Shown one piece after another: positions 2,536 through 63,888 of a stretch of DNA of 64,000 bases. Made by a program: the position numbers and the translations under genes. Origin of the DNA: Eledone cirrhosa (Eukaryota); contig OZ024755.1 of NCBI GenBank assembly GCA_964016885.1, positions 12,028,001 through 12,092,000 of the forward strand, in the 5' to 3' direction. Below the pieces are notes generated by a model. That model was not told the origin of the DNA. It did no database searches and was given only the letters and a program-made list of their open reading frames with translations. Each line of letters opens with the position of its first letter. The first letter of the stretch is position 1.

Positions 2536-2706
2536 TAGGAAAATGTTCAAGACCCCGACGGCAGAGCTCGAGCCATTTCGACGGCTATTTCTGCGTCCAG
2601 AAATAGCCGTCGGGGTCTTGAACATTTTCCTATTATCCACTCTACCTAAGTATTGAGTACTCTGGTGCGTTATGGTCCACCTGGTTCCTTAATACACTTC
2701 TTCGTT
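2536..2706 (+). mobile_element. Family A fold-back element in (TA)n
   Basis: Inverted arms taggaaaatgttcaagacccc / ggggtcttgaacattttccta plus a ~74 nt unpaired tail. Other copies at 41523, 54068 and 63162. The right arm has a gccgtc-to-gccgtc deletion. Confidence 0.85.
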
Positions 2707-3475
2707 ATATATATATATATATATATATATATATATATATATATATATATATATACACACACGTACGTGTATAGTAAAATACTAATTAAAATAATGACGA
2801 AATATTAATTTAAGATCAACAGCGGACTGAAACTCCTTTTTGTATGGCTTCTCATATGCAGTCGTTATAAATAAAAATATTTACTTTGTTTAAAATGTAA
2901 ATACGTGTTTAATGGTTATCAATAAGAAATAATGTATATTTCATAATGATGCCTTTTTATTTAATTATGTGTTTCGTTAATTATGTAACTAATTAGCAAT
3001 GATATATCTTATTATAAATTATAAATTGTAGGTTCTCCTTTAGTTTAATAAACAATAAGGGTGGACAAAATTTTAATGAAAACTTAAATTAAAAAAACAT
3101 TATGCGAGTGCGTGTGCATGTACATGTAAAAGAGAGAGAGAGAGAGAGAGTGTGTGTGTGTGTGTGTGCGTGTGTGTGTGTGTGTGCGTGTGTGTGTGTG
3201 TGTGTGTGACGGTATATGACTGTATAATTAATACAGAGAATAAAATAATAAAATTAAAGTATGTTTAGAATCTAATTGGAAAAGAAAAATTGTATATAAC
3301 ATACATAGTGGCTTATAGGATATACAGATGTATATGAATATATAGATATACAAACATATATAAACACACACACACACATATGCATATGTGTGTATATATA
3401 TATATATATATATATATATATATATATATATATATATATATATATATATATATATATATATATATATATATATAT

Positions 3476-3959
3476 AAGTATGTACACGTACATACATATA
3501 TGTATACAGACGTACAGTAGTATGTATATATATATATACATACATGCACACATATATATATGTACGTATGGATTCACCGAACATTTATTATAATGCTCGG
3601 TGTGCTTGTAAACAAACATCCCGTATTAAGCCGTAGTGTCCAGCAACCATCGTTGCTCGTTTGTTCAACACTGACAAAGGAACGCTGTACTAGTTTCAAG
3701 CTTATTAGCTATCGTCAGCAACGTATACCTTCCTGCCAGATTGTTGAACGTATATACTTACCTTATGCATATTAACGGCTGAGTAGCCCAATTTGCATAT
3801 CGAGTGGGTTAATCGGCCGGGTGCATGTATGTATATATATATACATACTACTGTACGTCTGTATATATACATATATATATGTACGTGTACATACTTATAT
3901 TTAAGTAACAGCCGTACTAAGAGTGGGAAATGAAATTTCGTTTCATTTTTTTCCGTTTA
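3476..3959. mobile_element. Family H fold-back element (HHR-bearing) in (TA)n
   Basis: Antisense arm 3476-3825 and sense arm to 3959 with a ~59 nt tail. Homologous to 61184-61998 with the same endpoints. Confidence 0.85.
3682..3724 (-). ncRNA. Type I hammerhead ribozyme (family H)
   Basis: Minus strand reads acgttg-CTGACGA-tagctaataagctt-GAAA-CTAG-TA-cagcgt. Stem I is 6 bp, stem III is the palindrome ACTAGT, and the cleavage triplet is GUA. Confidence 0.85.
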
Positions 3960-3969
3960 TGTATATATA

Positions 3970-4051
3970 TATTTTTAATATGGTATCCCTGAAATATGTA
4001 TAATGAAATAAATATGATTTTATAAATATAGTTTCCATTTGTTTAATATCG
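3970..4051 (+). mobile_element. Family B 3' fragment (3' half of HHR)
   Basis: ccctGAAATATGTATAatgaaataaatatg...tttccattt matches the copies at 26021, 52573 and 62269. Confidence 0.75.
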
Positions 4052-4179
4052 TATATCTACTCCAAAACTTGTTGAGTGCTTTATATCAGTTATAAAATAT
4101 TTACTCGTTGTTACCCAATAATTTTAAATAAAACTTTTGCATATATATATATATATATATATATATATATATATATATT

Positions 4180-4527
4180 AGAAAATGAGGGCTTTTTTAC
4201 AAAATGAAAAGTAACCGAGGTGTCCTACACGAGTGAAAGTATAAAGAAAAAAAGATGAAATCAAAAATACAACTGGAGTCTAATTTTTAAAAAAATATAT
4301 ATATTTATTTGGTTCCTTTACCGGTTTCGCAGTTCTTCTGTTTTTCAAAAGTAGAGTTGAGATGGAGGGTCTGTGTTTTCCTCACATCTGATGTGAGAAA
4401 AACCACAGACCCTCCATCTCAACTCTACTTTTGAAAAACAGAAGAACTGCGAAACCGGTAAAGGAACCAAATAAATATATATATTTTTTTTTAAATAAGA
4501 CTCCAGTTGCATTTTTGATTTCATCTT
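4180..4527 (-). mobile_element. Family C fold-back element with variant HHR-like core
   Basis: Palindrome centred near 4389 with a ~70 nt tail on the left. Each arm reads tactt-TTGAAAA-acagaagaactgc-GAAA-CCGG-TA-aagga (4426-4465 +, 4314-4353 -). Other copies at 5376-5545 and from 63952 to the window end. Confidence 0.8.
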
Positions 4528-5375
4528 TATATATATATATATATATATATATATATATATATATATATATATATATATAGAGAGAGAGAGAGAGAGAGAG
4601 AGAGAGAGAGAGAGAGTTACATGTATATAGAGAAATATATGTTGTACATTTGAATGTATCAGTTGGTAGATGCAGATTCCAGTTATGTAAGTGATTGTAT
4701 AAGACCATCTTGTCTCTTGTGAAACCTAATTTCTCAGTGCTACGTCTTTATAATTGTGATTTTATATTCGTGTTATTGCATATTGTAAGTACTTCAGAAA
4801 CCACTCCACATTTCTTTCAAAACAGAAAAAATAAACTGCTTTGAAATTCAATCGTTGTTGCTGTTGTTTAGCCATAGTTGTTCGTGTCTATATCTATATC
4901 TATATCTATATATATATATATAAGCTCGTCAATAAGACGTTGGGGTGGCGGAGAGAACAAAAATGTCCAATATGTTCTGATTTTTTTTTTTTTTTTTTTT
5001 TTTTAAAGACAGTTGCTATGAGTTGAGGGAAGGTTGTCTGCTATATGTACCATGGACTCGGACAAGTGCTGCAGAGTAATCTACCGAAAAATGATTGACA
5101 CATGATACGGTTATTTAAATACGAGGTATGTTTGTCTTTACCTAACTTTACAAATATTGCTATATGAAATGAAAAGATGAAATTTACAGCTAACGCTTAT
5201 ATAGGTTCACCAGATCTCTTACGAGATTAGATCTCCTATAAGGTTTCTTGGGGAATTTAATTATAGGGATACCACTCCTATTACTATAGATACATATTTA
5301 TGTGTGTGTGTGTATTTATTTATATATATATATATATATATATATATATATATATATATATATATATATATATAT

Positions 5376-5545
5376 GAAAATGAGGGTTTTTTTGTAATAA
5401 AAAACAAGATGTCCTACAAGTATAAAGAAAAGAAATCGAAAATGCAACTGGAGTCTTTTTAAGAATATTTATTTATTTCCTTTACCGATTTCACACTTCT
5501 TATGTTTTACAAAAGTAAAAATAAGATGAAGGGTTTGTGGTCTGA
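5376..5545 (-). mobile_element. Family C diverged copy without inversion
   Basis: Colinear with 4180-4375 and flanked by (TA)n. Confidence 0.75.
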
Positions 5546-61998: not shown

Positions 61999-62268
61999 TA
62001 TATATATATATATATATATATATATATATATATATATATATAATATATATATATATATATATATATATATATATATATATATATATATATATATATATAT
62101 ATATATATATATATATATATATAAGCAAATGGATATTTAATTTGTTGGTAATTCAACAAATATATTTATAACAGATTTATAACAAATATATTTAAAACGT
62201 ATCCGGGTGAAACTTGAACCGTTAAGGTCTCATTCCTGAATATGTCAATATTTATAAAACAAACTTTG

Positions 62269-62329
62269 TATTTTATCTGATGAGTGCGTACCAAAGTTTT
62301 GGTACCCTTGAAATATATATAATAGAATA
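62269..62329 (+). ncRNA. Type I hammerhead ribozyme (family B, element 62124-62370)
   Basis: tattttat-CTGATGA-gtgc gtaccaaa gt tttggtac cctt-GAAA-TATATA-TA-atagaata. Confidence 0.8.
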
Positions 62330-62527
62330 AATATGGTTTTATAAATATAGTTTCCATTTATTAATATATGACGTACATGTGTAGTCGTACACACACACAC
62401 ATATACCACACACACACACATACCACACACACACACACACACACACACACACACACACACACACACACATACATATATATATATATATATATATATATAT
62501 ATATATATATATATATATATATATATA

Positions 62528-62801
62528 TTGTTATACTTTGGAAGGGTCATGTTGCCAATAAGAAACACACGCACCAGTTGCTTTCACTTCAATTTATTAT
62601 AATAAATTTATAAATTTAGGAACCAACCAACCAACCGAAAATTTATAAATTCCTAAATTTATAAATTTATTATAATAAATTGAAGTGAAAGCAACTGGTG
62701 CGTGTGTTTCTTATTGGCAACATGACCCTCCCAAAGTATAACAATATCGGTTTCAACACACGTTTTCAGATAAAGAATCTTGCTAAACAAATTCAGAAAC
62801 G
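62528..62801 (+). mobile_element. Family F fold-back element
   Basis: Same endpoints as 5569-5850. The centre has caacc-GAAA-ATTTATAAAT-TC, a possible HHR 3' half. Confidence 0.85.
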
Positions 62802-63161
62802 AAATATATATATATATATATATATATATATAGCTGCGATGCATGTGTGTGGTTATAAACATAGTTTTGTTGCAGATGGAATTAGTATTTCTATTTGATA
62901 TATTCTCATAGCACATCTGACAAACAGTTTCGAAGATATACTTCATCTTCTAGTTTATGCTTATTGGGAGAAGATGCAGATGGAAAATATCTATATAACA
63001 GGGCCTTGGTGTTTTTCTGAATTTAGTGAGGGGATTCGTCGCAGTAGTGGTGATGCTGTCTGTGTTGTTGTTGTTGTTAATGACCGATAGCCATTTGCGC
63101 TAATAGCCAGCTCGGCAAAAATAATAAAAATCATAAATAAAATCATTAATATATATATATA

Positions 63162-63361
63162 TAGGAAAAAGTATGACCCCGACGGCAGAGCTCAAGCCAT
63201 ATCGACAGCTATTTCTCGACTGAGTCCAGAAATAGCCGTCGAAACGGCTTGAGCTCTGCCGTCGGGGTCATACTTTTTCCTAGTTCCCACTCTACTACCC
63301 TAAGTATTGAGTACACTGGTGCGTTATGGTCCATCTGGTTCCTTACCACAATTCCTTTGTT
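63162..63361 (+). mobile_element. Family A fold-back element
   Basis: Palindrome 63162-63282 plus tail, with (TA)n flanks. Confidence 0.85.
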
Positions 63362-63777
63362 ATATATATATATATATATATATATATATATATATATCCT
63401 CGCCCTTCCACTCTCTGCTTCTCCCCCTCTCACTTGCTCCCGTTTGGCCTGTGCGGGCTCCTTTCTCACTCACACCTCACCTACGTCGGATGGTCTGTAT
63501 ATCTTTCTCGCCCATGAAATTAGCTGAATAGATATCATGTGCTTGTTTCTTCCTATCTTTCCGTTGCTATACCTTGTTTGTTTGTTTATTTGTCTCGCTC
63601 GCTTTACGCGATATTACTTGTCCCAATAGCTTTATTTAGCTATTGCTCGCACCAACTAGAGGTATATTATTTTTAAAGCGATGAAATACCAATGAAGGTT
63701 GGAAAATGACTGATGAAGGACTAATTTTTTTCCTACATATATATATACGTACGTACACACACATGCATATATATATA

Positions 63778-63888
63778 ATACATTATGAAGAGAGAAGAAA
63801 CATTAGATACTATTAATAAGATATATCATACCCAAACTGCTTCTTTAGTCCCCGACTACGTAGTTTCGTGGCATATTATGCAAAAACA
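63778..63888 (-). mobile_element. 5'-truncated (TA)n insert with the 3' half of an HHR
   Basis: Minus strand reads GAAA-CTACGTAG-TC (63854-63867), a palindromic stem III with a GUC triplet. CUGANGA is absent. Confidence 0.55.

What the first reader, a model, noticed from the sequence alone, without database searches (positions are those of the whole stretch)
2536..63888. Window-wide set of hammerhead-ribozyme mini-elements targeting (TA)n microsatellites
Seen in sequence: about a dozen short ORF-less families sit in (TA)n tracts. About 16 CUGANGA...GAAA...NUH-type cores occur at 3682, 25395, 26021, 28556, 29023, 29490, 29945, 30780, 35034, 36615, 40671, 52573, 58995, 59105, 61690 and 62269; two have a mutated triplet. 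Most have a paired stem I and a very short palindromic stem III (ACTAGT, AGTACT, ATATATAT, ACTCCGGAGT), and several are followed by AATAAA. Established: minimal type I HHRs with palindromic stem III are typical of Penelope-like element (PLE) pseudo-LTRs and metazoan non-LTR retrozymes, cleave as dimers, and some PLE clades target microsatellites. Inference: this is a diverse non-autonomous ribozyme retroelement system at about one HHR per 4 kb, mobilised in trans, and likely hidden by low-complexity masking.
Basis: partly seen in the sequence, partly recalled or inferred. Interest (0 to 1): 0.92.

Follow-up and report, generated by a model that had tools for sequence, protein, structure and literature searches.

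The report
Penelope retrotransposon ends carrying hammerhead ribozymes
The ribozyme motifs are real: most are the short ends of known Penelope-like retrotransposons that insert into TA repeats, the rest are tandem 'retrozymes', and their boundaries suggest how these elements copy themselves.

Summary
All 16 hammerhead (HHR) cores are present and exceed shuffled controls (8 vs 0.1-0.3; 9 vs 0.08). They form 12 insertions of 8 families. Nine cores belong to families that I traced, directly or through ~81%-identical relatives, to the 3' pseudo-LTR (pLTR) of Penelope-like elements (PLEs) with RT and GIY-YIG ORFs, of the Hydra and Neptune clades. Six belong to two related tandem non-LTR retrozymes (467 and 459-472 bp). 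One is unresolved. So the set is not mainly a non-autonomous system. It is also genome-wide: 17 HHRs in 360 kb sampled elsewhere, 15 near (TA)n. Not found in the papers I searched: (1) many short copies start about 31 nt below a TATA box or at an Inr-like site, and none starts at the ribozyme cut; (2) in head-to-head hairpins each arm ends at a different RT start site (22 of 25); (3) retrozyme arrays show the same two TA-joined ends, array-specific uniform variants and an inter-family chimera. Inferred model: run-off cDNAs from internal initiation on uncleaved capped PLE RNA, plus PLE-driven rolling-circle copying of retrozyme circles. Cleavage, start sites and circles are untested.

The parts
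3477..3957 (-). F1 retrozyme piece, head-to-head; HHR core at 3718 (-), GUA, stem III ACTAGT
   Evidence: tandem 459-472-bp units in L041 and L052
61185..61996 (+). F1 retrozyme, partial tandem with an inverted arm; core 61696, palindrome broken; octamer ATGCAAAT
28333..30282 (.). F2 non-LTR retrozyme: 467-bp tandem array, 2.8 units (-) joined head-to-head to 1.4 units (+); cores 28593, 29060, 29527 (-) and 29952 (+); both ends on (TA)n
31240..31785 (.). Second F2 head-to-head insertion, truncated before the HHR core
62124..62367 (+). F3a: pLTR of a Hydra-clade PLE, inverted tail plus short copy; core 62277
   Evidence: L201, L202, L205
25909..26127 (+). F3 relative (~81% to 62209-62369); core 26028
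52530..52679 (+). F3 relative (~81%); core 52581; start approximate
40601..40771 (+). F4: pLTR of a Hydra-clade PLE, short copy between two (TA)n tracts; core 40676
   Evidence: L161, L163
36242..36808 (.). F4 relative, hairpin with tail; core 36620 with mutated triplet
   Evidence: L224
58839..59258 (.). F5: pLTR of a Neptune-type PLE, hairpin centred on the inferred start site; cores 59028 (-) and 59110 (+)
25338..25527 (+). F6: pLTR of a Hydra-clade PLE, hairpin with tail; core 25400; 4-bp stem III, GUA
30679..30941 (-). F7: 3' end of a Neptune-like PLE; core 30808, stem I decayed in this copy
   Evidence: L213, L029
35030..35105 (+). F8: diverged HHR, core 35040, GUG; partner not found
4179..4527 (.). 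F10: Neptune pLTR hairpin without a canonical core (also 5376-5546 and 63952-64000)
   Evidence: L079, L091
30310..30647 (.). F11: Neptune pLTR hairpin without a canonical core
   Evidence: L069, L071, L107
62529..62803 (.). F13: PLE 3' end truncated below its HHR (also 5570-5850 and 6431-6477)
   Evidence: L141, L179
63164..63360 (.). F12: hairpin-plus-tail family in (TA)n (also 2538-2705, 37683-37720, 37829-37866, 41509-41716, 54066-54260); partner not traced; tail motif shared with the Hydra families

Best explanation
The window is a TA-rich landing zone for Penelope-like retrotransposons. SHOWN: families F3a, F4 and F6 are pLTRs of Hydra-clade PLEs, F5 of a Neptune PLE, and F7 probably of a Neptune-like PLE. 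F1 and F2 are homologous tandem, ORF-less HHR repeats (non-LTR retrozymes). All traced families end at one of two fixed sites joined to (TA)n. INFERRED: a PLE pLTR is ordered promoter, start site, HHR, RT site 1, tail, RT site 2. The RT/GIY-YIG protein cuts (TA)n and primes from both ends of the break, one at site 1 and one at site 2. When it uses the module at the 5' end of an uncleaved transcript, it runs off at the start site after 130-260 nt. This leaves a promoter-less ORF-less copy, or a hairpin when the two cDNAs join head to head. Retrozymes carry their promoter-like octamer and both RT sites inside the repeat unit. HHR cleavage and ligation would give a circle that a PLE RT copies round and round into uniform arrays.
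For: ORF links: F5 in 6 of 6 copies of one GIY-YIG family among 50 GIY-YIG loci fetched. F4: 2 of 3 extended copies reach RT+EN. F3a: 3 of 5 reach EN, one with RT. F6: 4 of 4 extended Hydra copies end in it. F7: 1 of 4, plus L029. TA joints: 119 of 151 terminating ends are followed by (TA)4, background 1.7%. 5' ends: in F5, with a query from the 3' side, 13 of 16 truncated copies end within about 6 nt of a point 31 nt below TATATAAG, and 4 of 20 read through. TATA lies at -31, -31 and -32 in F5, F6 and F10. Among incidental copies, 29 of 51 start in a 15-nt window at that point and 0 at the cut site. Hairpin arms end one at each RT site in 22 of 25 pairs. F2: units are identical within each of three arrays, and two arrays carry their own 2 or 4 variants in every unit; the circular fold has z -9.0. 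L052 is an F1/F2 chimera. A compensatory T-A to A-T swap in F2 stem II and TA loose ends at both sites appear in other runs. In vitro, a PLE cuts and extends both strands, starts RT at two internal sites and uses uncleaved RNA (PMC11167929).
Against: No RNA evidence: start sites, caps, cleavage and circles are untested. F3a, F3b and F4 have no TATA at -31, and F11's A/T box is at -39. The start points were partly defined from the observed ends, which is circular. 17 of 51 incidental copies start elsewhere. Folded alone, two of five cores tested (F6, F3a) do not give the hammerhead as lowest-energy fold, and z-scores run from +0.44 to -2.3. Most hairpin arms share a haplotype, which also fits self-priming. 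No PLE partner was found for F1, F2 or F8. Uniform arrays can also arise by unequal crossing-over. Empty sites were not seen, so part of the (TA)n may be added during insertion.
Confidence: 0.72

Rival explanations
1. One reading: all the short units are self-propagating non-autonomous mini-elements moved in trans by PLEs.
For: Fixed boundaries and high copy numbers (1582 first-look candidates for F3a). Promoter-bearing solo pLTRs exist and could supply templates in trans. Penelope has an internal promoter (PMC2377424). True for F1 and F2.
Against: The same sequences continue upstream into promoter, UTR and ORF. No sequence specific to the short forms was seen. The short copies of F5, F6 and F10 lack the TATA box.
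Confidence: 0.13
2. Ordinary random 5' truncation of 3'-primed PLE cDNAs, with hairpins made by self-priming or snap-back. The fixed 5' ends are RT stalls at a structure, not a transcript start.
For: 5' truncation and inverted ends are standard for PLEs (PMC8557442). Self-priming was proposed for the junction palindromes (PMC3846280). Most arms share alleles.
Against: The ends cluster at the same TATA distance in three unrelated families. The two arms end at different fixed sites in 22 of 25 pairs. Arms carry different family alleles in 5 of 13 F5 pairs (site 178 excluded) and 2 of 9 F3a pairs.
Confidence: 0.13
3. Chance motifs in AT-rich, microsatellite-rich DNA, or assembly artefacts.
For: AT-rich palindromes such as ATATATAT are easy to form. 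Isolated folds are weak.
Against: 8-9 hits against 0.08-0.26 in shuffles. Dispersed multi-copy families with covarying stems. The F2 unit is found in four other runs.
Confidence: 0.02

Closest known systems
Hydra-clade PLEs (Craig et al. 2021, PMC8557442)
   Same: R-W-[K/R] and DKT motifs, CxCx5C linker, CxxC/CxH around the EN, C-terminal EN, HHR in the pLTR, (TA)n targets.
   Different: The paper reports a small number of families outside cnidarians. Here there are at least four families, and one EN query gave 57,273 first-look candidates (candidates are not copies). One family has a 3' UTR with over 2 kb of degenerate TA/TG repeat.
Neptune-clade PLEs
   Same: DKG motif, CX2-5CxxC linker, RT plus GIY-YIG, pLTRs, tail, inverted 5' copy.
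   Different: Several Neptune families here have lost CUGANGA but keep GAAACCGGUA or ACCGGU.
Minimal HHRs of metazoan PLEs (Cervera and de la Pena 2014, PMC4209133)
   Same: Type I, short helix I, palindromic helix III, mostly dispersed single copies tied to truncated PLEs.
   Different: A U.U pair often replaces G10.1-C11.1 (F1, F5, F6, F8). F6 has a 4-bp helix III. The estimated count (about 1.4e5) is far above the 9,000 the paper cites for Xenopus, though the descriptors differ.
Metazoan non-LTR retrozymes (Cervera and de la Pena 2020, PMC7229834; Li et al., bioRxiv 10.64898/2026.07.22.740005)
   Same: Tandem ORF-less repeats with one type I HHR per unit, low GC, a highly paired predicted circle, known from a mussel.
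   Different: F1 and F2 show a PLE-type insertion signature (two fixed ends on (TA)n, head-to-head inversion) and an inter-family chimera. I saw neither described in the parts I read.
Anolis Poseidon PAc in vitro (Frangieh et al. 2024, PMC11167929)
   Same: Two internal RT start sites bounding the tail, both strands cut and extended, AT-rich targets, uncleaved RNA as template.
   Different: Different clade. The paper, in the parts read, does not relate hairpins or solo pLTRs to the start site.

Membership tests
EN+ PLE (F3a, F4, F5, F6, F7) | RT plus C-terminal GIY-YIG ORF upstream of the HHR-bearing repeat | tested here: met
   F7 shows only the EN end in one copy; Pfam GIY-YIG above cut-off and RVT_1 just below it for L094
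EN+ PLE | pLTRs, inverted 5' copy and optional tail | tested here: met
   L091 has two pLTRs around a 938-aa frame; hairpins with tails
Hydra clade (F3a, F4, F6) | RWK-type, DKT, CxCx5C, CxxC and CxH motifs | tested here: met
   all motifs seen for F4; only the linker and EN motifs for the truncated F3a and F6 loci
Hydra / Neptune clades | RT phylogeny against reference PLEs | not tested
   no reference PLE set was fetched; the clade calls rest on motifs
Neptune clade (F5, F10, F11) | DKG and CX2-5CxxC linker before GIY-YIG | tested here: met
   DKG seen for F5 and F10, linker for all three; Nematis not excluded by motifs alone
Hydra / Neptune clades | (TA)n insertion preference | tested here: met
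   119 of 151 ends against 1.7% background; empty sites not seen
Non-LTR retrozyme (F1, F2) | Tandem ORF-less unit with a type I HHR in at least two consecutive units | tested here: met
Non-LTR retrozyme (F1, F2) | Self-cleavage and circular RNA | not testable with these tools
   no RNA run listed
Non-LTR retrozyme (F1, F2) | Homology to a PLE pLTR | tested here: inconclusive
   no match to 6 pLTR references beyond low-complexity hits and embedded F1/F2 copies in 8 PLE loci; most PLE families in the genome were not sampled
Minimal type I HHR | Core boxes, helices I and II, palindromic or paired helix III, NUH | tested here: met
   individual copies damaged
Minimal type I HHR | Catalytic activity, alone or as a dimer | not testable with these tools
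   needs in vitro transcription
Naiad | N-terminal EN and no canonical HHR | tested here: not met
   EN is C-terminal in every linked ORF where both domains were seen

The most novel reading that the evidence does not exclude
This genome holds on the order of 1e5 PLE hammerheads, mostly as run-off cDNAs that map each family's start site and two RT start sites. PLE head-to-head palindromes come from twin priming by one complex, one cDNA from each RT site, sometimes on two RNA molecules. The same complex copies retrozyme circles into arrays and can switch between retrozyme families. This would give one genomic rule for solo pLTRs, inverted pLTRs, tails and retrozyme arrays.
Probability: 0.45. 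Interest if true: 0.75.

Novelty: new member of a known kind. Interest (0 to 1): 0.52.

Why it matters
How PLEs form tandem and inverted ends and choose microsatellites is named as open in PMC8557442, and the mobilisation of animal retrozymes by PLEs is still a hypothesis in the 2026 preprint. Here young, abundant families give exact predicted start sites, RT start sites and templates, so both questions can be tested by CAGE, circular-RNA RT-PCR and in vitro priming. It also points to a large Hydra-clade and ribozyme load in this genome, and to PLEs that carry the TA-rich sequence they target. The element classes themselves are known.

Tried and rejected
Expression: no RNA holder was listed. 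The very high contig depth in run X1 is of unknown library type and summed over 1241 contigs, so I did not use it.

An apparent arm-specific G/A bias at F5 position 178 was rejected as ascertainment, since the query carried the A allele; I left it out of the allele counts.

A cap-derived extra 5' G was looked for. It appears in some F3a and F6 copies but not consistently, and inverted arms and TATG repeats confound it, so it is not claimed.

F6: four promoter-bearing copies had no sense ORF within 2.9 kb, and seven Hydra copies showed no pLTR in the first 2 kb. The link appeared only on extending four of the seven. F4: L162 did not reach an ORF. F3a: L203 and L204 did not. F7: L210-L212 did not.

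63710 has CTGATGA but no helix II or GAAA in 7 related copies, so it is not counted as an HHR.

Pfam found nothing in four ORF pieces, three Hydra and one F13-type. The Atlas gave unnamed clusters and DUF8422, a lead only.

AATAAA as a poly(A) signal was rejected: it is present in 5 of 16, and the copies continue to fixed TA-joined ends.

Earlier scan notes: three look-ups returned nothing.

Literature searches listed no paper on octopus HHR elements or on start-site run-off copies. Subscription journals, Repbase and Dfam were not searched, and no supplements were read, so these families may already be annotated there.
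Full report
SETTING. The window is C15:12,028,001-12,092,000 of a 3.0-Gb assembly, about 34% GC and dense in (TA)n. It looks like an octopus genome. That is recalled from the repeat content and was not tested.

OBSERVATION. All 16 cores are there. A strict type I descriptor found 8, against means of 0.11 and 0.26 in two kinds of shuffle (100 each). 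A second descriptor found 9 against 0.08. The 16 cores are 12 insertions of 8 families (F1-F8). Several copies are damaged. Self-comparison showed that many TA-flanked units, with or without a core, are hairpins with a tail on one arm.

GENOME-WIDE. In 36 stretches of 10 kb taken at round-number positions, the second descriptor found 17 HHRs against 0-1 in 10 shuffles. 15 of 17 lay within 250 nt of (TA)6, where 24.6% of bases lie; collapsing three hairpin pairs gives 12 of 14, p about 3e-6. This scales to about 1.4e5 motifs (Poisson 0.8-2.3e5, ignoring clustering; one of the 17 looks like chance). The window is about three times denser than this sample. At the fixed 3' ends of seven families, 119 of 151 terminating copies run into (TA)4, against a background of 1.7%.

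PLE TERMINI. PF01541 gave 10,596 candidates, of which 150 were scored, and I fetched 50.
- F5 lies 370-430 nt after the stop of an RT-CxxxxCxxC-GIY-YIG ORF in all 6 copies of that family: Neptune type.
- F4 continues upstream in 10 of 30 loci, and 2 of 3 extended copies reach an ORF with RMRWRA, DKT, CxCx5C, CxxC and CxH, the Hydra-clade motifs of PMC8557442.
- F3a: 3 of 5 fetched long copies (of 40 scored) reach a Hydra EN.
- F6: 4 of 4 extended copies of another Hydra family end in the F6 pLTR after more than 2 kb of TA/TG repeat; L221 is 98.5% identical to window 25395-25524.
- F7: 1 of 4 reaches a GIY-YIG end, and L029 repeats the link.
- Cores 26028, 52581 and 36620 are assigned through ~81% relatives. 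F8 is unresolved.
- HHR-less units F10, F11 and F13 are also PLE ends.

RETROZYMES. F2 is a 467-bp unit in tandem arrays on many chromosomes. Units are identical within each of the C5, C6 and C12 arrays. The C5 and C12 arrays carry their own 2 and 4 variants in every unit. Arrays end at two unit positions about 68 nt apart, each mostly followed by (TA)n, and the circular monomer folds at -147 kcal/mol, z -9.0 over 60 shuffles. F1 (459-472 bp) is 61% identical to F2 over its whole length. Both, and a third tandem family seen in L222, contain ATGCAAAT. The newt HHR satellite has an snRNA-type promoter (PMC2220036, passage), so the octamer may mark a promoter; this is inference. In L052 an F1 array switches to F2 at a shared hairpin and is joined head-to-head to an F2 array. 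Contigs of other runs show TA loose ends at both F2 sites, a compensatory swap in helix II, and a GUC triplet in one run. No PLE partner was found.

BOUNDARIES. With a query from the 3' side of F5, 20 of 40 hits were fetched: 4 read through the promoter, and 13 of the other 16 stop within about 6 nt of a point 31 nt below TATATAAG. TATA sits at -31 in F6 and -32 in F10. F4 and F3b have CCAAT at -56 and -48 with TCA-TATG, F3a has an octamer and no TATA, and F11 fits less well. Among copies met by chance in loci fetched for other reasons, 29 of 51 start in the -6..+8 window, 5 upstream, 17 elsewhere and 0 at the cut (20 of 37 for the four families with a canonical core). In 22 of 25 hairpins one arm ends at site 1 and the other at site 2 (F3a 9/9, F5 11/13, F4 2/3). 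Arms differ at family-polymorphic sites in 5 of 13 F5 pairs (site 178 excluded as biased) and 2 of 9 F3a pairs; the rest share alleles. In 17 F6 cores, helix I covaries (score 0.128; 0 of 500 shuffles reach it; slid controls at most 0.042). The collecting pattern fixed helices II and III and the rows are related, so this is modest support. Isolated cores fold weakly, as expected for dimer- or protein-assisted HHRs.

MECHANISM. Shown: the family identities, the TA joints, two fixed 3' ends, the clustered 5' ends and array uniformity. From the literature: PAc cuts and extends both strands, starts at two internal sites that bound the tail, and uses uncleaved RNA (PMC11167929). Inferred: the 5' cluster is the start site; short copies are run-off cDNAs from the 5' pLTR module; hairpins join two such cDNAs; and retrozyme arrays are rolling-circle cDNAs made by PLE RT. 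The HHR would then serve to make circles that rebuild a promoter upstream of the ORF, as proposed in PMC4209133. In rotifer Pen2a the inverted pLTR is 37 bp shorter than the full one, which contains a TATA 20 bp before an Inr (PMC3846280). That is compatible with this model if the missing bases are the promoter, which I did not check; the authors proposed self-priming. Confidence is about 0.9 for the identities and about 0.6 for the run-off and twin-priming steps.

WHAT I READ. PMC4209133 and PMC11167929: parts 1-2 of 4. bioRxiv 10.64898/2026.07.22.740005: parts 1-3 of 5. PMC8557442: passages and section 11. Passages only: PMC7229834, PMC3846280, PMC2377424, PMC13282606, PMC2220036. No supplements were read; those of PMC8557442 and PMC13282606 may already list these families.

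VERDICT. The feature is real. These are new members of known kinds (Hydra and Neptune PLE ends, non-LTR retrozymes), not a new system. The value lies in the boundary pattern, which makes the PLE and retrozyme copying mechanism testable.

Noticed in passing
L214-L224 (Hydra family ending in F6): The 3' UTR holds more than 2 kb of degenerate (TA/TG)n in the 4 copies followed to the pLTR, so the element carries sequence like its own target and may feed the genome's microsatellite load.
   Followed up: partly
window 4179-4527, 30310-30647; L061-L064, L079, L091, L108: Several Neptune families lack CUGANGA but keep GAAACCGGUA or ACCGGU, which suggests the palindrome has a role apart from catalysis.
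   Followed up: no
tails of F3a, F4, F6, F12: A shared TTGAGTRC motif lies 20-30 nt after RT site 1; it is a candidate protein-binding signal of the Hydra clade.
   Followed up: partly
L052 1050-3400: F1 array that switches to F2 at a shared hairpin and is joined head-to-head to an F2 array.
   Followed up: partly
L222 about 620-1650; L169: A further tandem HHR family (323-bp spacing, stem III ATGCAT) with an octamer, also head-to-head.
   Followed up: no
L079, L082, L069, L071 upstream of the pLTR start: TGGCGCGAAA / TGGCGCAAAA boxes resembling E2F sites (label recalled) beside CCAAT boxes.
   Followed up: no
window 31829-31933, 37486-37621, 52697-52822: Pieces of the terminal repeat next to another Hydra ORF (L164); no HHR was looked for in it.
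   Followed up: partly
window 1581-1780 and about 16 other places: A ~180-bp dispersed repeat that looks like a SINE; it resembles the octopus tRNA-derived SINEs (recalled). No tRNA scan was run.
   Followed up: no
window 36933-37144: 3' end of an RTE-like LINE (label recalled from the translation) inserted beside (TA)n.
   Followed up: no
window 63398-63733: Dispersed family ending in CTGATGAAGGACT without the rest of a hammerhead, with an optional tail in other copies.
   Followed up: partly
window 26571-27751; 21030-24920: Tandem array of a ~45-bp unit spaced by TA/TG runs; long TGG/GTA/TAG trinucleotide arrays with strong strand skew.
   Followed up: no
window 36282-36379: 23-bp unit repeated 4.3 times inside the inverted arm of the F4 relative, likely RT slippage.
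   Followed up: no
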